DNA from: Mobula hypostoma
Lineage: Eukaryota
NCBI RefSeq assembly: GCF_963921235.1
Contig: NC_086108.1
Coordinates: 32,304,001-32,368,000, forward strand
Direction: 5' to 3'
Length of the DNA: 64,000 bases
Shown here: positions 12,777-45,108 of the stretch, piece by piece
Numbering within the stretch: the first letter of the stretch is position 1
How the letters are laid out: the number at the start of each line of letters is the position of its first letter
The notes under the pieces: model-generated
Databases searched by the model: none
The model's input: the letters and a program-made list of their open reading frames with translations, nothing else
What the model was told of the DNA's origin: nothing
Translations under genes and position numbers: made by a program

Positions 12777-12953
12777 GTAAGTTATTTAATAGCTTTATGT
12801 GAGATACTATGACTTGTTGTAAACATTGGTAATTAGTGAGGAGGAAATGAAAGTTACGCTTTGCTGACATTTGGAAGTGGTTCAAGAATGTCCTCTTAGC
12901 TAAGGAATTTACAGTACTATGCAAAGGTCTTGGGCATATGTAGTATATCTGGC

Positions 12954-13656
12954 TAGGGTGCAGTACTGTACTTGTCAACGTAGGGTGCAGTACTGTACTT
13001 GTCAACGTAGGGTGCAGTACTCTATTTGTCAACGTCGGGTGCAGTACTCTATTTGTCAACGTCGGGTGCAGTACTGTATTTGTCAATGTAGGGTGCAGTA
13101 CTGTATTTGTCAACGTAGGGTGCAGTACTGTATTTGTCAACGTAGGGTGCAGTACTGTATTTGTCAATGTAGGGTGCAGTACTCTATTTGTCAACGTAGG
13201 GTGCAGTACTGTACTTGTCAACGTAGAGTGCAGTACTCTATTTGTCAACGTAGGGTGCAGTACTCTATTTGTCAACGTAGGGTGCAGTACTGTACTTGTC
13301 AACGTAGGGTGCAGTACTGTATTTGTCAACGTAGGGTGCAGTACTCTATTTGTCAACGTAGGGTGCAGTACTGTACTTGTCAACGTAGGGTGCAGTACTG
13401 TACTTGTCAACGTAGGGTGCAGTACTGTACTTGTCAACGTAGGGTGCAGTACTGTACTTGTCAATGTAGGGTGCAGTACTGTATTTGTCAACGTAGGGTG
13501 CAGTACTGTACTTGTCAATGTAGGGTGCAGTACTGTACTTGTCAATGTAGGGTGCAGTACTGTATTTGTCAACGTAGGGTGCAGTACTGTACTTGTCAAC
13601 GTAGGGTGCAGTACTCTATTTGTCAATGTAGGGTGCAGTACTGTATTTGTCAACGT
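12954..13656. repeat. 27-bp minisatellite, ~26 copies
   Basis: Unit tagggtgcagtactgtaYttgtcaaYg repeated head to tail with few variant positions and no spacers. Confidence 0.97.
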
Positions 13657-13831
13657 GGAGCGCAGAGCAAGTTGTAAATCTGGCAGGAGCAAAGGATGTT
13701 GGGAATGGCGAGGGTGGAGCACCACGGGTGGGCTGTGCGATAGGTGGCAGAGAGGGAGTGCCAGGGGCGGAGGGTGGCACTGGTGCAGGCACACCCAGCT
13801 CCGAGACACCAGGCAAGGTCATTTGGTTCCA

Positions 13832-25900: not shown

Positions 25901-27170
25901 TGGGGAATTGTCAATACTTTAAACTTCTTTAATACACATGAATGTCAAGGAATACATTGTTCATTTTCCCCAGATGAATTTCATGGGATTGCTAGTTTGT
26001 CAAGTTCTTCCACACAAGATTAATATATACAAAGATGAACCTTAATGAGATTTACCCAGACTTCCTAACCAACTGCTTTTACCGATCAAGGTCTGCAGCA
26101 AAATTATTCCTCATACTTGGTCTTTTGATTCAGCTGTCAAAGGCTCTGTACTCGGCAATTTGTGTTTTTTCTCTCTCTCTCTCTCTCTCTCCCTCCCTCC
26201 CCCTCCCCCTCCCCCCCACCTCCCCATCCCCCCCTCTCCCCCTCGTTGGTGGGTGAGAGATTGTTGCCAATTCTCAGCTCATAGAACTCGGGAGAAAAAA
26301 AGTGGCACAATAGATTTTTTAACACCTTGAATCAGCGAGTTGTTTTGTTGTCTCCCCTCTCGCTGTGAAAGGGAACACATCTCTTTCCCTTTTTGAGGGG
26401 GAGAGAGAGCCTGCAGCATATCAAATTGTTGGGTGAACAATTAGTTTTGTTGTACTGCGGATCATGGCCTTTATTGGGGGCCTTGCTATTGCATTCTTGG
26501 TGGGTGGAGAGTGCTGATCCCATTTTGCTGAAGTGGGTAGGGGTGGAGGAGGGTCATTACTTTGCTGCTGCTTGTGCATGGGAGGGGTTATAAGGGGGCT
26601 TTGGGTTCTAACATTTGAACTGTCACTCATTCTTTAGGGCACTCTTCTGTTTTTGTCATGGTCCGGTCCGTGAAGTCTGTGTTCCAGTTCACAGTCCAGT
26701 CCGTGGTCTCTGGACTCCAGGTCTTCCAGCTGTCCCTTGTTTCAGTTGGGCTTAATCATAGGCACCTGATGCTCATCTTGTGGCTGGGAATATAAGTGGC
26801 CCGGGTTTCGAGTGTGGGTGTTCGTCTTGTCAGTACCCTGTCCTTGCCTCTGTTGGGTAAGCAATGCTGTCTTTGCCATTACCCTGAGGCTCGACTGTGC
26901 CCTTCCCTTCACCTTCCTCCTGAGGCCTTGCCTGAAGCCTTGGCTGAAGACATGCTTGTATCGCTATCAAGTTCTACTGCTGGAGCAAGACTGGAGCCTT
27001 GCTGTGTCTAGATAAGGAACTGTGTATCATTGTTTGGAACTGTCTCTGTGTCCACGCCTTCGCTAGGTAGGTCTGGCCGTTTGCCACTACCTTGTGTTGG
27101 ATATTGTCTCTCTGTGTTCTGTGTATAAGTCCCAGCCCTATGTCCTGTTCCCAAGGAGGGGTCCTGGCCC

Positions 27171-27385
27171 TGTGTTCTACGTTCCTGTCTCCCAAGACCA
27201 AGGCTCTGTGTTCTGCGTTCCTGTCTCCCAAGTCCAAGGCTCTGTGTTCTGCGTTCCTGTCTCCCAAGACCAAGGCTCTGTGTTCTGCGTTCCTGTCTCC
27301 CAAGACCAAGGCTCTGTGTTCTGCGTTCCTGTCTCCCAAGACCAAGGCTCTGTGTTCTGCGTTCCTGTCATCCCAAGTCCAAGAC
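27171..27385. repeat. 36-bp tandem repeat (~6 copies) inside the solo LTR
   Basis: Unit tgtgttctgcgttcctgtctcccaagaccaaggctc. Confidence 0.92.
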
Positions 27386-27794
27386 TCGGCTGTTCCTGAG
27401 TACCAAGTCAAGGCTTCATGTGCCTCGTCCTGTCCATGTGTTTCGTTCTGTGCTGGAGTTCCCTTGCCTTGCCCAGGGGGTGTCTCATTCTGTCCTGTAG
27501 CCTCACCTAGTTCTGTCTCCCAAGACCACGTCATGTCTTTGCCTAGATCCAGAGTCCGAGCCTGAGTCAAGACCCAGGTTCTGGGTCCTTGTCCAGTCTC
27601 TGGCTTGGAGTCCAAACCCAAGCCTCGTCTTGTCCTCACCTCAGAGTACCCAAGCCATGAAGTACCCAAGCCACGTCCTGTCCTATAGCCACGTCATGTC
27701 CTTGCCTAGTTCCGGGGTCCGAGCCCGAGTCGAGACCCAGGTTCTGGGTCCTTGTCCAGTCTCCGGCTCGGAGTCCAAGCACAGGCTCCTAACA

Positions 27795-31539: not shown

Positions 31540-34157
31540 TAACACTAAGGGGCAGAAAACGCTGGTGGGAGTTGTGTACAGGCCACCTAACAGTAGTAGT
31601 GAGGTCAGGGGTGGTATTAAACAGGAAATTAGAAATGTGTGCAATAAAGAAACAGCAGTTATAATGGGTGACTTCAATCTACATGTAGAATGGGTGAACC
31701 AAATTGGTAAAGGTGCTGAGGAAGAGGATTTCTTGGAATGTATGCGGGATGGTTTTTTTGAACCAACATGTCGAGGAACCAACCAGAGAGCAGGCTATTC
31801 TAGACTGGGTTTTGAGCAATGAGGAAGGGTTAATTAGCAATCTTGTCGTGAGAGGCCCCTCGGGTAAGAGTGACCATAATATGGTGGAATTCTTCATTAA
31901 GATGGAGAGTGACATAGTTAATTCAGAAACAAATGTTCTGAACTTAAAGAGGGGTAACTTTGAAGGTATGAGACGTGAATTAGCTAAGATAGACTGGCAA
32001 ATGACACTTAAAGGATTGACGGTGGATATGCAATGGCAAGCATTTAAAGATTGCATGAATGAACTACAACAATTGTTCATCCCAGTTTGGCAAAAGAATA
32101 AATCAAGGAAGGTAGTGCACCCGTGGCTGACAAGAGAAATTAGGGATAGTATCAATTCCAAAGAAGAGGCATACAAATTAGCCAGAAAAAGTGGCTCACT
32201 TGAGGACTGGGAGAAATTCAGAGTTCAGCAGAGGAGGACAAAGGGCTTAATTAGGAAGGGGAAAAAAGATTGAGAGAAAACTGGCAGGGAACATAAAAAC
32301 TGACTGTAAAAGCTTTTATAGATATGTAAAAAGGAAAAGACTGGTAAAGACAAATGTAGGTCCCCTACAGACAGAAACAGGTGAATTGATTATGGGGAGC
32401 AAGGACATGGCAGACCAATTGAATAATTACTTTGGTTCTGTCTTCACTAAGGAGGACATAAATAATCTTCCAGAAATAGTAGGGGACAGAGGGTCCAGTG
32501 AGATGGAGGAACTGAGCGAAATACATGTTAGTAGGGAAGTGGTGTTAGGTAAATTGAAGGAATTAAAGGCAGATAAATCCCCAGGGCCAGATGGTCTGCA
32601 TCCCAGAGTGCTTAAGGAATTAGCCCAAGAAATAGTGGATGCATTAGTGATAATTTTTCAAAACTCGTTAGATTCTGGACTAGTTCCTGAGGATTGGAGG
32701 GTGGCTAATGTAACCCCACTTTTTAAAAAAGGAGGGAGAGAGAAACCGGGGAATTATAGACCAGTTAGCCTAACGTCGGTGGTGGGGAAACTGCTGGAGT
32801 CAGTTATCAAAGATGTGATAACAGCACATTTGGAAAGTGGTGAAATCATCGGACAAAGTCAGCATGGATTTGTGAAAGGAAAATCATGTCTGACGAATCT
32901 CATAGAATTTTTTGAGGATGTAACTGGTAGAGTGGATAGGGGAGAACCAGTGGATGTGGTATATTTGGATTTTCAAAAGGCTTTTGACAAGGTCCCACAC
33001 AGGAGATTAGTGTGCAAACTTAAAGCACACGGTATTGGGGGTAAGGTATTGATGTGGATAGAGAATTGGTTAGCAGACAGGAAGCAAAGAGTGGGAATAA
33101 ACGGAACCTTTTCAGAATGGCAGGCAGTGACTAGTGGGGTACCGCAAGGCTCAGTGCTGGGACCCCAGTTGTTTACAATATATATTAATGACTTGGATGA
33201 GGGAATTAAATGCAGCATCTCCAAGTTTACAGATGACACGAAGCTGGGCGGCAGTGTTAGCTGTGAGGAGGATGCTAAGAGGATGCAGGGTGACTTGGAT
33301 AGGTTGGGTGAGTGGGCAAATTCATGGCAGATGCAATTTAATGTGGATAAATGTGAAGTTATCCACTTTGGTGGCAAAAATAGGAAAACAGATTATTATC
33401 TGAATGGTGGCCGATTAGGAAAAGGGGAGGTGCAACAAGACCTGGGTGTCATTATACATCAGTCATTGAAAGTGGGCATGCAGGTACAGCAGGTGGTGAA
33501 AAAGGCGAATGGTATGCTGGCATTTATAGCAAGAGGATTCGAGTACAGGAGCAGGGAGGTTCTACTGCAGTTGTACAAGGCCTTGGTGAGACCACACCTG
33601 GAGTATTGTGTGCAGTTTTGGTCCCCTAATCTGAGGAAAGACATCCTTTCCATAGAGGGAGTACAGAAAAGGTTCACCAGATTGATTCCTGGGATGGCAG
33701 GACTTTCATATGAAGAAAGACTGGATGAACTGGGCTTGTACTCGTTGGAATTTAGAAGATTGAGGGGGGATCTGATTGAAACGTATAAAATCCTAAAGGG
33801 ATTGGACAGGCTAGATGCAGGAAGATTGTTCCCAATGTTGGGGAAGTCCAGAACGAGGGGTCATGGTTTGAGGATAAAGGCGAAGCCTTTTAGGACTGAG
33901 ATTAGGAAAAATTTCTTCACACAGAGAGTGGTGAATCTGTGGAATTCTCTGCCACAGGAAACAGTTGAGGCCAGTTCATTGGCTATATTTAAAAGGGAGT
34001 TAGATATGGCCCTTGTGGCTAGGGGGATCAGAGAGTATGGAGGGAAGGCTGGTGCAGGGTTCTGAGTTGGATGATCAGCCATGATCATAATAAATGGCGG
34101 TGCAGGCTCGAAGGGCCGAATGGCCTACTCCTGCACCTATTTTCTATGTTTTCTATG
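31540..34157 (+). mobile_element. Young CR1 LINE, 5'-truncated within the endonuclease
   Basis: Endonuclease motifs (GVVYRPP, MGDFN, SDH), full RT domain, 3' stem-loop ggtgcagg...cctgcacc and ttctatg tail. Frameshifts near 31755 and 32270. Confidence 0.95.
32386..34065 (+). CDS. CR1 ORF2 reverse transcriptase (open 559-aa segment, likely pseudogenic)
   Basis: Motifs KSPGPDG, NYRPVSLTS, LDFQKAFD, GVPQGSVLGP and FTDD (usually FADD). Confidence 0.85.
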   Translation: MIMGSKDMADQLNNYFGSVFTKEDINNLPEIVGDRGSSEMEELSEIHVSREVVLGKLKELKADKSPGPDGLHPRVLKELAQEIVDALVIIFQNSLDSGLVPEDWRVANVTPLFKKGGREKPGNYRPVSLTSVVGKLLESVIKDVITAHLESGEIIGQSQHGFVKGKSCLTNLIEFFEDVTGRVDRGEPVDVVYLDFQKAFDKVPHRRLVCKLKAHGIGGKVLMWIENWLADRKQRVGINGTFSEWQAVTSGVPQGSVLGPQLFTIYINDLDEGIKCSISKFTDDTKLGGSVSCEEDAKRMQGDLDRLGEWANSWQMQFNVDKCEVIHFGGKNRKTDYYLNGGRLGKGEVQQDLGVIIHQSLKVGMQVQQVVKKANGMLAFIARGFEYRSREVLLQLYKALVRPHLEYCVQFWSPNLRKDILSIEGVQKRFTRLIPGMAGLSYEERLDELGLYSLEFRRLRGDLIETYKILKGLDRLDAGRLFPMLGKSRTRGHGLRIKAKPFRTEIRKNFFTQRVVNLWNSLPQETVEASSLAIFKRELDMALVARGIREYGGKAGAGF

Positions 34158-37651: not shown

Positions 37652-40600
37652 GGAGCTGAAGGCACAGCGATGTCGTCTTCATGAGCAGGAAACAGAGGGG
37701 ATTGATAACCGAGGGAGCATTCAAAGGGAGACATTCCAGTGTGGTGCTAACCAGGGAGTTGTGGGTGTACTCCACCCAAACAAGATGGGTGCTCCAGGAT
37801 GAAGGGCTGTCGGCAGATATGCAGCGCAGTGCTGCTTCCAAATCCTGGTTCGCTTGTTCCATTTGACCGTTAGTCTGTGGATGGAAACCGGAAGACAGAC
37901 TTACTGAGGCTCCAAGGGCTTGACAGAAGAATCTCCAGACTTGAGAGATGAATTGGGGTCCCCAGTCAGAAACAATGTCAGAGGGAATTCTATGAAGGTG
38001 GAAGACGTGATGGACAAGGAGGTCGGCTGTTTCACAGGCTGTAGGGAGTTTGGGAAGGGCTATGAAGTGCACGGCCTTGGAGAAATGGTCCACCACGGTG
38101 AGTACAGCAGTGTTACCCTGTGAAGGGGGTTGTCCAGTAACAAAATCCAGAGCAATGTGGGACCAAGGGCAGGTAGGGACAGGTAGGGGACGAAGCAGCC
38201 CAGCAGATGGCCGATGGGAGGCTTTTCCGCGGGCACAAACAGAACAGGCAGAGACGAAGGAACGAGTGTCAGCATCCATGGTGGGCCACCAGAAATGTCA
38301 CTTCAGAAGGGACAGAGTTCGATTGGTTCCGGGATGGCAGGCAAAACGAGAAGCATGCCCCCACTGGAGAACCTGAGACCAGACAGAGTCAGGCACGAAG
38401 AGGTGATTGGGCGGTCCACTGCCTGGGTCAGGTTGAGTCCGCTGGGCCTCTTTGACTATGGATTCGATCTCCCAGGTGAGGGCAGCCACCACACAGGATG
38501 GTGGAAGGATGGTCTCGGGGTTGGGAAGGCCCTCCTCCGAGACGTATTGACGAGAGAGAGCATCTGGCTTCCCGTTCTTGGAACCAGGACGATAGGTGAG
38601 GGTGAATTTGAAACGGCCAAAAAATAATGCCCGACGGGCTTGGTGGGAATTAGGGCGTTTAGCGGTTTGGATGTATGCCAGGTTCTTATGGCCCATCCAG
38701 ACGATGAATGGGTGTTCTGCTCCCTCCAACCAGTGCCTCCACTCCTCCAAGGTGAGTTTGGTGGCCAGCAACTCCCGGTTCTCAACGTCGTAGTTCTGTT
38801 CGGCGGGGGATAGACGGCGAGAGAAGAAGGCTCAGGGACAGAGTTTTTGGTCTGGGACTGAGCGTTGGGAGAGGACCACTCCCACCCAAGAGTTGGTGGC
38901 GTCGACTTCCACAATGAATTGGCGAGAGGGGTCAGGTTGGACCCAGATGGGAGCGGAGGTGAAACGCCTCTTCAGCTCCAAGAAGGCTGAGTCCACTTTG
39001 GGGGTCCAGTGGAAAGGGCTCGCAGGAGAGGTGAGCTGAGTAAGGGGCGCTGCCACCCGGCTGGAATCCCTGATGAAGCAATGGTAGAAGTTTGTGAACC
39101 CCAGAAATCGCTGGAGTTGTTTGAGCATCGTGGGTTTCGGCCACTCTGCCACCGCCCGGATCTTTTCAGGATCTGCTGTCAATTGCCCGCTCTCAATGAT
39201 GTACCCCAGGAAACTGACAGAACGGTCCTGGAACTCGCAATTCTGTGCCTTAATGAATAGCTTGTTCTCCAAAAGCCTCTGAAGAACCTGATGGACATGG
39301 TGGATGTGTTCCTGAAGATTACAGGAGAAGATTAGGGTGTTGTCCAAATAAGCCAAAATGAAATGGTTAATAAGGTCCCCAAGGATGTCGTTTACCAGGG
39401 CTTGGAAGATGGCGGGGGCATTGGTGAGACCAAATGGCAGGACCAGATATTCGAAATGACCGAGGGGGTGTTAAAAGCTGTTTTCCATTCTTCTCCCTCC
39501 CTTATCCTGACCAGGTGATAGACACTCTGCAGGTTCAACTTAGAGGAAATTGTGGCTCCATGAAGGGGCTCGAAAACAGAGTTGATAAGGGGCAGGGGAT
39601 ACTTATTCTTTACGGTGATGATATTCAGGCCGTGGTAGTCAATGCAGGGGTGCAGTGAGCTGTCTTTCTTCCCCACAATGAAGAAACCTTCACCTACAGG
39701 GGAAATTGAGGGTCGGATAATGCCAGCCGCGAGAGAGTCATTTAGGTAAGCCTCCATTGCTTTCCTTTCTGGTCAGGACAGGTTGTACAGCCGACTGGTG
39801 GGTAGAGAGGCTCCGGGGAGAAGGTCAATTGCTCAATCATAAGGGCAATGTGGAGGCAGGGAAAGAGTCCGTTGCTTGATAAACTTCTCCCAGATCGTGA
39901 TACTCTACTGGAACCTTGGATAAGTCGGGGGGCTCAGAGGCGGACGAGGTCGCGGTGACCTCCACTGGGGAAAGGGCTGATTGTAGACAAGTGGAATGGC
40001 AGAACGAACTCCAGCTGACTAGCCTCCCGGTGGACCAGTCGATGTGGGAGTTATGACGGCTTAACCAGGGGTAACCAAGAGCTACAGGGGCTTGAGGAGA
40101 GGAAATTAAATTGAATTGTACCTGTTCCCGATGGTTTCGGGAGAGAAGGAGAGGCAGGAGTTCTGTGCAGTGTGTGACTCGGGCCGGTAGTCTACTGTCC
40201 AGTGCCCAGACTTCCAGGGGGGTACTCAATGGCTCACGAGGAATACCGGCTTGGAAGGCAAAGTTTTCATCCAAAAAGTTTCCCTCAGCGCCGGAGTCCA
40301 CTAGTGCTAATAGAGGCAAGGACTGTTGGTTATAACACAAAGTGGCTTGAAGCTGCATCCGGGGTCGGGGGACGGAAGGGTATGTTGTCTGGCTCACCAG
40401 GGTCCCCCTTTCTACTGGTGCCTTCCCTTTTTGGCCGAAGGGGGCAGGTGGCAAAGTAGTAACTGGACTGGCCACAAAAGAGACTATTCCCCCACTCTTA
40501 TTCTCCGGAATCGTTCTGGGGGAGAAAGGCAGTTCTGTCCCAGCTGCATGGGTTCCTCTCCCGGGGCGGTGGAAACGGCAGGGGGCTACTCTAGGAGCAG

Positions 40601-41973
40601 GAGGAGGAGAGAGGCTTGTTCTGGCAGGAGGCGATAATGAGTGCCAAGGAGTGGCCAAAGTTGGTGGTCGACCAGTTCTTAATGGCGTTCTCAGAGACGA
40701 TTGTCCAACCTGGTGACTAGGGACATCAGGGAATCCAGGCGGTCGGTGTCATCTCTTGCCACCAACTTGTCTTTCATCATGTCGCTAAGAGCATTCCGAA
40801 ATACCCCTTGGAGTGCCACATCATTCCACCCCGAGATGGCCGCTAACATCCGGAACTCCACAGAATATTCCACAACACTGTGTGAGCCCTGGCGGAGAGC
40901 AAGTAGACGCTTAGCGGCATCTTTACCACGGACGGGGTGGTCAAAGACCTTTCTCATTTCCGCGGTAAAGGCGGTGAAGGAAGAGCAGCTATCCAGTTGG
41001 TTATCCCAAACAGCTGTGCCCACGCTAATGCACTTCCCCGCCACAACCCCATGATATATGCAATCTTTGACTTATCTGTGGACGACTGCTGTTCGAACAC
41101 CAAGGAACATTGCAGAAGGAAGGCCCGGCACTTCCCCAAGTCTCCAACGTAGTGCTCCGGTTCAGGTACGTGAGGCTCTTTTGGCGGGGGTGTTGCTGAC
41201 ACGTAAGGGGTTGCCGCTACAGGCTGTCTGGGCTGGTTAGACAGGGTTCCAGGAGTGGATAGGGTAAAATGAGTGGATACACGGTCCACCTGGTTACCGA
41301 TCTGTGTGACGTGAGCAGACAGGGAATGGAGGTTCTCCATGACCTCCCGGAGAAGTTGGTCGCGCAGACCCAGTAGGGAACCGTGGCTGGCGAGGGCTTG
41401 TTGAAGGGTATTCGTGTCCACTGGGTCCATGATGGCCAGATCGTTCTGTTGCAACAAACAAGGCGAACCCAGATACAGGACACAGGCATGGAGATTGAGT
41501 TAGGATGCAGATGCGGGCATGAGCATTGAACGGCAAACAGGAGGGAGTGCAGGAAAGCAGGAGGCAGGCAGAGCTGATCTTGACATGGAGCGTAGAAAGG
41601 AAAGCGCAGACAAAACTTTTCTTAGCACGGAGAGACGGAGTTACACAGCTAAACCTCAGTGCTGAAGTAAAACTTAAGAGTACTTATTTTGACACGAAGA
41701 GACTGAGTTTCACAGGTAAATCTCAGTACTGAAGCAAAACTTGGAACACAAAATCCTAAGCAGCCAGGAAATGTTAATTACCACACTGGCAAAACCAACG
41801 ATCTGGCAACTAGTGGGTGCAAAGCCAGGGTTCTTATGCTGCAGGTCTTAATGAAAACCAGGTGTGTCGCCATCTAAGGAAATTAGGAGAAAATGGGGAA
41901 TTAACAGTTAGAACTGTGACACAATTAAAGGGAATTAGGAGAAAACTGGGAATTAATGGTCAGGACTGTGACA
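37652..41973 (-). mobile_element. Ty3/Gypsy LTR retrotransposon of the Tf1/sushi group, 3'-truncated and frameshifted
   Basis: Order is LTR, gag (MDPVD..., degenerate Zn knuckle), protease LVDSGA, RT (NKYPLP, YLDN for YLDD), RNase H (VEVDAT), integrase ([27 protein letters not shown]). Confidence 0.93.
41447..41973 (-). repeat. 5' LTR of the Gypsy element
   Basis: Element-sense TGTCAC...GCAACA. Followed immediately by a PBS-position sequence and the gag ATG at 41430. Confidence 0.8.
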
Positions 41974-42274
41974 AATATATTAAGTTCCTGCAAAATGAAA
42001 TAGAATTGCAAAGTTTTTCAAACATGGAAACCAGCCTCCCCTCTACAGACTTCGTCTATATTTTGTGTTGCCTCAATAAAGTGGTTAGCATCATCAAAGA
42101 CCCTAGCCATCCCAGACATTCTCTCCTCTCCCCTCTCCCCTCTCCTATCACAAAGAAGATACAAAAGCCTGAAAGTATGTACCACTAGGTTCAAGGACAG
42201 CTTTTATCCAACTGCTATCAGTCACTTGTACAGTAAAATGGACTCTTCACAATCTTCACAATCTATCTCATAAT

Positions 42275-43527: not shown

Positions 43528-45108
43528 CAGTGCCCACAAAAAGTATTCACCCCCTTCCCAGAAGTTTTCATGTTTTATTGTTTTACAACATTGAATCACA
43601 ATGGATTTACTTTGGCTTTTTTGATACTGATCAACAGAAAAAGACTCTTTCGTGTCAAAATGAAAACAGATCTCTGCAAAGTGATCTAGATTAATGACAA
43701 ATATAAAATGCAAAATAATTGATTGCATGAGTATTCCCCTCCTTTAATATCACACACCAAATCATCACTGGTGCAGCCAATTGATTTTAGAAGTCACATA
43801 ATTAGTTAAATGGAGATCTGTTTTTGGAGACTTGTGTGCAGTCAAGCTGTTTCAATTAATTGTAGTAAAAATACTCCTGTATCCGGAAGGTCCAACTGCT
43901 GGTGAGTCAGTATCCTGGCAAAAACTACACCATGAACACAAAAGAACACTCCAAGCAAATCCACGAAAAGGTTATTGAAAAGCACAAGTCAGAAAATTTC
44001 CAAGTAACTGTATTTCCTTGGAGTACAGTTAAGTCAATCATCAAGAAATGGAAAGAATATGACACAGCAGTAAATCAGCCTAGACCAGGCTGTCCTCAAA
44101 AACTGCGTGACCGTGCAAGAAGGGGACGAGCGAGGGAGGCCACCAAGAGACCTATGACAATTCTGGAGGAGTTACAAGCTTCAGTGGCTGAGATGGAAGA
44201 GACTGCACATACAACAACTGTTGCCCAGCTGCTTCACCAATCGCAGCTTTATGGAAGAGCGGCAAAGAGAAAACCACTGTTGAAAAGGCCTCACATGAAA
44301 CCTTGGTTAGAGTTTGCCAGAAGGCATGTGGGAAACTCTGAAGTCAGCAAGAAGAAGGTTCTATTGTCTGATGAAACCAAAATTGAGCTTTTTGGCCATC
44401 AGGCTAAACGCTATGTTTGGCGTAAGCCAAAGCATACATTATCAAAAACATGCCATCCCTACCATGAAGCATGGTGATGGCTGCATCATGCTGTGGGGAT
44501 GCTTCGCTGCAGCAGGCACTGGAAGGCTAGTGAAGGGAGAAGGTAAAATGAATGCAGAAAAATACGGGGAAATCCTGATGTAGTCTGCAAGTGAACTGCT
44601 ACTTGAGAGAAGATTTTTTTCCAGCAAGACAATGACCCCAAACATAAAGCCAAAGCTGCACAGGAATGGCTTAAAAGCAAAAAAGTTAATGCCTTGGAGT
44701 GGCCAAGTCAGAGACCAGGCCTCAATCCAATTGGGAATTTGTGGCTGGACTTGAAAGGGGCTGTTCGCTCATGATCCCCATGCAATCTGACAGAGCTTGA
44801 GCAGTTTTGTAAAGAAGAATGGGGAAAAATTGAAGTGTCCAGATGTGCAAACCTGATAGAGACCTATCCACACAGACTCAAGTCTGGAATTGCTGCCAAA
44901 GGTGCATCTACTTAATAGTGACTTGAAGGGGGTGAATATTTATGCAATCAATTATTTTGTGTTTTATATTTGTAATTAATTGAGATGACTTTATAGTATC
45001 TGTTTTCACTTTGACACGAAAGTCTTTTTTCTGTTGATCAGTGTCAAAAAAGCCAAATTAAATCCACTATGATTCAAATGTCGTAAAACAATAAATCATG
45101 AAAACTTC
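43528..45108 (+). mobile_element. Near full-length Tc1 transposon (IR/DR type), inactivated
   Basis: TA followed by cagtgccc; ~200-bp inverted termini; paired-like [22 protein letters not shown] motifs. Frameshift near 44430 and stop at 44581. The outermost ~30 bp of the right TIR are missing. Confidence 0.92.

What the first reader, a model, noticed from the sequence alone, without database searches (positions are those of the whole stretch)
41435..41840. Gypsy element carries an 11-nt self-priming signature instead of a tRNA primer-binding site
Seen: on the element strand, 1 nt past the 5' LTR, the sequence is AACGATCTGGC (plus 41435-41445). This is not the TGG-initiated match to a tRNA CCA end. 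Its exact complement GCCAGATCGTT lies inside the LTR (plus 41797-41807), about 25-30 nt downstream of a TATA-like CATAAGAA, so near the predicted transcription start. Known: S. pombe Tf1 primes reverse transcription by folding its first 11 nt onto the PBS, and this mechanism has been proposed for vertebrate Tf1/sushi elements. Inference: this family self-primes. The pairing is still perfect although the ORFs are decayed.
Basis: partly seen in the sequence, partly recalled or inferred. Interest (0 to 1): 0.72.

Follow-up and report, generated by a model that had tools for sequence, protein, structure and literature searches.

The report
Self-priming sushi-type retrotransposon, dead copy
This broken jumping gene has no tRNA landing site; the 11 letters after its left end-repeat pair with the predicted first 11 letters of its own RNA, and four related families in the same genome keep that pairing with different letters, so the group likely starts copying itself with its own RNA, a trick already proven for yeast Tf1 and already proposed for fish sushi elements.

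Summary
Observation confirmed. The window holds a decayed, 3'-truncated Ty3/gypsy element (LTR 41973-41447, minus strand) of a high-copy family whose other copies carry a chromodomain. The 11-mer 1 nt past the LTR is the exact complement of an LTR 11-mer 29 nt below a TATA-like box (1 of 5000 shuffles). Within the family the changes are CpG decay and say nothing; only 8 of 30 copies still pair fully, so this copy's perfect pairing is luck. Across five families in the genome, 6 of 11 pairs change on both sides, and in each family an AT-rich box sits at -30. That is the Tf1/sushi self-priming signature, known since Butler 2001; the scan reported it before on other DNA of this genome (e1-8034992). 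Added here: a second helix, also with compensatory changes, pairs U5 with the first gag codons and covers the G of the AUG. The third duplex of Tf1's 'pretzel' was not found. No transcription-start data; priming is inferred, not shown. New member of a known kind.

The parts
41447..41973 (-). 5' LTR, 527 nt, TG...CA; begins with two units of a 52-nt repeat
   Evidence: ends from 5'/3' LTR pairs and target duplications in other copies
41831..41838 (-). TATA-like box CATAAGAA at about -30 (predicted promoter)
   Evidence: AT peak at -30 in all five families
41797..41807 (-). predicted self-primer: 11 nt at the predicted start of R (predicted +1 = 41807)
41465..41483 (-). 5' arm (U5) of the second helix, with a bulge (3 nt in most copies)
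   Evidence: -22.9 kcal/mol duplex in this copy
41435..41445 (-). primer-binding site, 1 nt after the LTR; complement of 41807-41797
41414..41430 (-). gag ATG (41430-41428) and first codons; 41428-41414 form the 3' arm of the second helix
   Evidence: (Met1 of relative P0016 aligns here)
40490..41430 (-). decayed gag (DUF4939 + Retrotrans_gag; capsid piece like PEG10)
37653..40380 (-). decayed pol: protease, RT, RNase H, integrase zinc finger and core; cut off at about 37653, no chromodomain, PPT or 3' LTR in the window

Best explanation
This is a dead, 3'-truncated copy of a vertebrate chromodomain-type Ty3/gypsy retrotransposon whose family likely primed reverse transcription with the first 11 bases of its own RNA, as Tf1 does. 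Shown in sequence: the 11-bp complementarity, its position, and two-sided changes between families. Inferred: Pol II starts at 41807; bases 1-11 fold onto the PBS; a second helix (U5 with gag codons 1-6) closes the PBS loop from the other side, crossing the first helix as in Tf1's 'pretzel'; by analogy with Tf1, RNase H cuts after base 11 to free a 3' end and RT copies U5 and R. The copies are no longer under selection: what is seen is a fossil of the active ancestor.
For: Family-level pair tallies, with the LTR site located by its flanks and not by complementarity (61 of 72 copies located): pair 3 C-G to T-A, pair 4 A-T to C-G, pair 5 G-C to A-T and pair 11 T-A to A-T in family E; pair 6 A-T to T-A in B and C; pair 8 C-G to T-A in D. 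In pairs 1-10 the commonest state is Watson-Crick in every family. B groups with A and C with D in a quick gag tree (weak support), which would make pair 6 change twice. Mean pairs 9.15 against 8.15 (sd 0.11) when PBSs are shuffled among copies, 0 of 5000 as high (copies are related, so not a probability). Metagenome relatives: L173 11 of 11 with other letters, L174 10 of 11, L175 9 exact. AT peak at -30 in all five families although primer-to-PBS distance runs from about 145 to 440 nt; pyrimidine at -1 in 59 of 61 copies against 60% background. Chromodomain-like stretch in 15 of 20 fetched copies, 3 of 3 tested over the Pfam cut-off. Literature: the Tf1/sushi group self-primes (passages of PMC10085805, PMC6317226, PMC4600332, PMC7175516).
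Against: No start-site data. Nested folding of this copy's leader gives the primer helix probability 0.00; the program cannot form crossing helices, so this neither supports nor excludes it. The third duplex of Tf1's structure (just upstream of the PBS) was not found: best duplex no better than shuffles in all five families. Pair 11 is a mismatch in family C (8 of 8) and G-U in D. Family B's primers pair on average better with C's PBS (9.61) than with B's own (8.77), partly through four near-identical copies with an altered PBS. Family E rests on 3 copies. A few flank-located sites were misplaced and were left in the counts.
Confidence: 0.88

Rival explanations
1. Self-RNA priming, but with the primer taken from the 3' copy of R or from a second co-packaged RNA rather than by intramolecular folding of the capped 5' end.
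For: The 11-mer is in both LTRs, and sequence covariation cannot tell the source apart. A long 350-nt loop and zero probability in nested folding leave it open.
Against: The 11-mer starts about 30 nt below an AT-rich box with a pyrimidine at -1 in all five families, i.e. exactly at the predicted 5' end, and its first two bases are invariant between families; a 3'-derived primer would not need that. Tf1 uses the 5' end (PMC7175516 passage).
Confidence: 0.07
2. A host tRNA (whole or half) or another small RNA primes; the LTR match is a by-product.
For: A TGG lies 8 nt past the LTR in 55 of 72 copies. My host tRNA sample was small (Lys and Cys types only), so a full tRNA screen was not done.
Against: No copy has TGG within 0-5 nt of the LTR; family E lacks the TGG; the PBS changes between families in step with the LTR site. 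A genome-wide pattern for a T-loop followed by the PBS complement gave 11 matches; 9 lie in a 45-nt satellite and none of 8 loci scanned holds a tRNA. No Rfam match in 41300-42050. By recalled tRNA rules (C at position 61) the offset-8 TGG site does not fit a tRNA 3' end.
Confidence: 0.03
3. Chance inverted repeat or one-off template switch with no function.
For: 11 bp is short; this copy is dead and most copies have mismatches.
Against: 1 of 5000 shuffles; same position and two-sided changes in five families and in elements from other samples.
Confidence: 0.02

Closest known systems
Vertebrate Tf1/sushi group (GyDB V-clade: sushi-ichi, Amn-ichi/ni/san) of Ty3/gypsy chromoviruses
   Same: Gag-PR-RT-RH-IN-chromodomain order in family copies; TG...CA LTRs, 5-bp target duplications; PBS complementary to the LTR, no tRNA site. 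RT piece 62-77% identical to fish and ray chromodomain elements, among them Takifugu proteins at 62-63%. Self-priming stated for the group in PMC10085805 and PMC6317226 (passages, citing Butler et al. 2001, which I could not see).
   Different: No sequence named sushi-ichi or Tf1 came up, so no tree with the named founders. Whether Butler et al. already drew the helix over the gag AUG is unknown to me.
Tf1/Tf2 of Schizosaccharomyces pombe (also Tj1, Tosmo1-3, Tcry1)
   Same: 11-nt primer at the start of R pairing with a PBS right after the LTR's CA; a flanking duplex between LTR sequence and PBS-adjacent sequence (PMC10085805, PMC7175516 passages).
   Different: Tf1 needs three duplexes; here two were found and the one upstream of the PBS was not. 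Here the downstream duplex is made of coding sequence (gag codons 1-6). Cleavage and priming are proven for Tf1, only inferred here.
HIV-1 U5-AUG helix
   Same: U5 pairs with the region of the gag start codon and frames the PBS; in HIV-1 it belongs to a monomer/dimer switch (PMC3794615 passages).
   Different: tRNA-primed retrovirus, no homology implied; no switch shown here.
Mart/SIRH genes (PEG10, RTL1)
   Same: Capsid piece matches PEG10 structure 7LGA, E 2e-07; these genes derive from sushi-ichi-like elements (PMC4340606 abstract start).
   Different: Domesticated host genes; this is a decayed repeat copy.

Membership tests
Ty3/gypsy LTR retrotransposon | Order PR-RT-RH-IN between LTRs, PPT, target duplication | tested here: met
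   (window); LTR pairs, PPT and 5-bp duplications in other copies
Chromovirus | Chromodomain at the end of integrase | tested here: met
   Lost in the window copy by truncation; matched in 15 of 20 family copies, Pfam Chromo over cut-off in 3 of 3 tested
Tf1/sushi group | PBS complementary to the start of R instead of a tRNA | tested here: met
   start of R predicted from TATA/pyrimidine-purine pattern, not mapped
Tf1/sushi group | Three-duplex 'pretzel' leader | tested here: inconclusive
   Central and downstream duplex found with two-sided changes; upstream duplex not found
Tf1/sushi group | RT/IN tree placement with Tf1 and sushi-ichi | not testable with these tools
   No named founder sequence was returned; nearest relatives are fish chromodomain elements
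Tf1/sushi group | Capped 5' end at the primer; RNase H cleavage after the primer; primer attached to strong-stop DNA | not testable with these tools
   Only contig-level runs offered
tRNA-primed gypsy elements | PBS starting TGG within a few nt of the LTR, complementary to a tRNA 3' end | tested here: not met
   0 of 72 copies

The most novel reading that the evidence does not exclude
In vertebrate sushi-type elements the self-priming structure is built over the gag start: the primer ties the capped 5' end to a PBS that overlaps the Kozak context (GCCACCATGG in 22 of 30 family copies), and a second, covarying U5 helix covers the AUG's G and codons 2-6 (in L173 the AUG has moved into the PBS itself). 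One RNA fold would then both shut translation and license reverse transcription, an HIV-like translate-or-replicate switch; it would also explain why Gag in this clade starts M-D/N-P-A-D/E, and it would do without Tf1's third duplex.
Probability: 0.3. Interest if true: 0.55.

Novelty: new member of a known kind. Interest (0 to 1): 0.27.

Why it matters
Self-priming is proven only in fission-yeast Tf1; for vertebrates the papers I could read state it as a group property resting on predicted structure. Two-sided changes across five families in one genome are good comparative support and name exact bases to mutate in a reporter. The mechanism itself is not new. The helix over the gag start is the only part that may add something, and it may already be drawn in Butler et al. 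2001.

Tried and rejected
Within-family covariation (30 copies): CpG decay only; primer G9-to-A in 12, matching PBS C-to-T in 9, both in 4, Fisher p=1.0. Expression and start site: no RNA holder listed on record; four runs guessed to be RNA are contigs only and cannot show a start. Nested folding of the whole leader did not form the primer helix; alignment folding of whole leaders gave the U5/gag helix in B, C, D, E but not in the A groups, where it appears only in local folds and pair tallies. Cross-family matrix for the second helix in a fixed register was not clean because A and B have a 1-nt bulge in the outer part; only the inner 7 bp are counted. In family A a control (best of three other gag stretches, -17.7) comes close to the observed duplex energy (-19.3). 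Third duplex: not found. tRNA sample from the Rfam search was nearly all tRNA-Lys. Search for named sushi-ichi/Tf proteins failed. Metagenome loci: 24 of 81 had an LTR pair; most contigs stop inside the LTR, five had a match of 9 nt or more after a CA end, of which L197 is AT-rich and probably chance; L172 starts too close to the PBS to be judged. The careful gag tree did not finish; the quick tree is used only for rough grouping. No A(A/T)TAAA in 24 family-A LTRs, so the R/U5 border was not placed. Two primary Tf1 papers were not held. Five paper searches aimed at prior print on this and one on elasmobranchs showed no paper on a U5/gag-AUG helix in self-priming elements; subscription papers, including Butler 2001, are not covered.

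Full report
Observation. On the minus strand the LTR ends ...TGCAACA at 41447, one G follows, then AACGATCTGGC (41445-41435); its complement lies at 41807-41797, with CATAAGAA at 41838-41831. Each 11-mer occurs once in the window, and an 11-nt complement arose in 1 of 5000 shuffles. The window has only one LTR; the element stops at about 37653 inside integrase. Pfam finds DUF4939, Retrotrans_gag, protease, RT, RNase H and integrase pieces in separate frames.

Family. A search of the own genome had 1956 first-look candidates, 40 scored, 30 fetched at 86-100% identity including the window copy itself. Of 20 copies fetched at 7.5 kb, 13 gave an LTR pair; they fix the LTR ends, show purine tracts and, in 8 of 12 read by eye, 5-bp target duplications. 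5' and 3' LTRs differ by 8-15% in 12 elements, about as much as LTRs of different elements: an old burst, now decaying. A chromodomain-like stretch is present in 15 of 20 copies and passes the Pfam cut-off in 3 of 3 tested. The RT piece is 77% identical to a stingray protein and 62-71% to fish chromodomain elements; the host is probably a cartilaginous fish (inference).

Within-family test. Both 11-mers are recognisable in nearly all 30 copies, but only 8 keep 11 Watson-Crick pairs. Variation sits at the CpG of each 11-mer (13-43% per column against 2% at the other 18 columns), and paired changes are no commoner than chance (4 against 3.6). The perfect pairing of this copy is therefore not a sign of ongoing selection.

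Cross-family test. The DUF4939 profile gave 150 matches; I took 110 of them plus the window, clustered them and recognised an LTR-end/PBS/ATG junction in 72 (the rest lack it or are too decayed, and the regular expression was shaped on the commoner PBS types). They fall into five families A-E. To avoid circularity the LTR site was located by its flanks against one or two reference copies per family: found in 61 of 72. Commonest pairs: A GCCAGATCGTT with AACGATCTGGC; B GCCAGTTCGTT, pair 6 flipped on both sides; C the same flip, pair 11 a mismatch; D pair 8 changed on both sides, pair 11 G-U; E (3 copies) pairs 3, 4, 5 and 11 changed on both sides. No family breaks pairs 1-10. Each family's primers pair best with its own PBS except B (8.77 own, 9.61 with C). 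In all five an AT-rich peak lies at -30 and the base before the primer is a pyrimidine in 59 of 61 copies (background 60%), although the LTRs differ and the loop runs from about 145 to 440 nt. Three metagenome relatives show the same with other letters (L173 11 of 11, L174 10 of 11, L175 9 exact). Note that in Tf1 about half of the cDNA keeps a full PBS copy at its 3' end (PMC11042837 passage); if the PBS is re-copied from the primer each cycle, covariation is partly built in, which still points to the 11-mer being the primer (inference).

tRNA. No copy has TGG within 5 nt of the LTR (0 of 72). A pattern for a T-loop followed by the PBS complement found 11 places, 9 in a satellite, no tRNA in 8 loci scanned. 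The host tRNA sample was limited to Lys and Cys types, so the screen is incomplete.

Second helix. With the PBS held open, local folds pair a U5 stretch about 15-45 nt above the PBS with the sequence just below it in most copies of all families. In the window it is 41483-41465 with 41428-41414, -22.9 kcal/mol. The 3' arm is the start of gag: Met1 of relative P0016 aligns at 41430. In the inner 7 bp, pair 3 is G-C in A, B, D, E and A-T in C (8 of 8; a Pro-to-Ser change in Gag); pair 4 is A-T in 6 of 11 D copies (G-T in 4); pair 6 is T-G, T-A or C-G by family. The duplex beats all of 40 shuffles in 40 of 72 copies and other LTR windows on average in every family; the margin is thinner in A and E. 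L173 keeps the helix with several other letters while its gag ATG has moved into the PBS: the helix is thus kept for structure, not only to cover an AUG, yet the AUG stays in a paired region. This helix crosses the primer helix, which is why nested folding cannot show both. It matches the downstream duplex of the Tf1 'pretzel'; the upstream duplex was not found.

Mechanism. Shown: complementarity, position, covariation, domain content. Inferred from Tf1: start at 41807, folding, RNase H cut after the primer, extension into U5. Rivals: primer from the 3' R or a second RNA (0.07), tRNA (0.03), chance (0.02).

What is known. PMC10085805 and its preprint (passages and section 28, part 1 of 2): the Tf1/sushi group, present in fungi and vertebrates, self-primes through a three-duplex pretzel, citing Butler et al. 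2001. PMC6317226, PMC4600332, PMC7175516, PMC5341516, PMC3601003, PMC2864245, PMC4340606, PMC11042837 and PMC3794615 were seen as passages only. Butler 2001 and the Levin papers were not seen; no supplements were read, and figures with the pretzel drawings are not held. The scan reported the same signature on other DNA of this genome (e1-8034992).

Verdict. Real, well supported, and a new member of a known kind. Interest 0.27; the helix over the gag start is the open lead.

Noticed in passing
L257 (G000:C36:76638000-76646000; also L007 and L011): Tandem element: LTR-internal-LTR followed again by PBS and gag, the middle LTR shared. Tandems with one shared LTR are described for Tf1's integrase-independent insertion (PMC11042837 passage); LTR-LTR recombination would give the same.
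   Followed up: partly
window 41973-41870; L253, L256, L263, L264, L268, L269: The 52-nt repeat at the start of U3 differs in copy number between the two LTRs of one element (two units at 5' and one at 3' in five copies, two of them with intact target duplications; the reverse in L269). Could be later deletion or plus-strand transfer between different RNAs; the query was the long form, so the direction is biased.
   Followed up: partly
window 41615-41742: Internal 61-nt duplication (82% alike, 67 nt apart) in the LTR; primer-to-PBS distance within family A varies from about 225 to 440 nt.
   Followed up: no
family A LTRs (L252-L268): No A(A/T)TAAA hexamer in 24 LTRs, whereas family C has AATAAA about 55 nt above the LTR end.
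   Followed up: no
L173:1263-1275: In this relative the gag ATG lies inside the PBS and opens the Gag frame.
   Followed up: yes
L213, L221, L227, L232, L233, L242, L245, L249, L228: Metagenome gypsy elements with 8-11-nt complements between the post-LTR sequence and their own LTR (offset 4 nt, mostly 85-87 nt apart; L228 10 nt at offset 2); not classified.
   Followed up: no
window 32251-34065 (+): Stop-free 604-aa stretch that reads like the RT half of a CR1-type LINE (label by eye, no family search run).
   Followed up: no
window 43591-45077: Inverted repeats (84-92%) around a transposase-like ORF at 43869-44583, likely a Tc1/mariner copy (label by eye).
   Followed up: no
window 12819-13793 and 27130-27405: Minisatellites with 27-nt and 36-nt units.
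   Followed up: no
G000:C9 about 6.99-7.10 Mb (L272-L280); G000:C90 4.0-6.5 Mb: A 45-nt satellite array; a large array of tRNA-Lys(TTT) genes.
   Followed up: no
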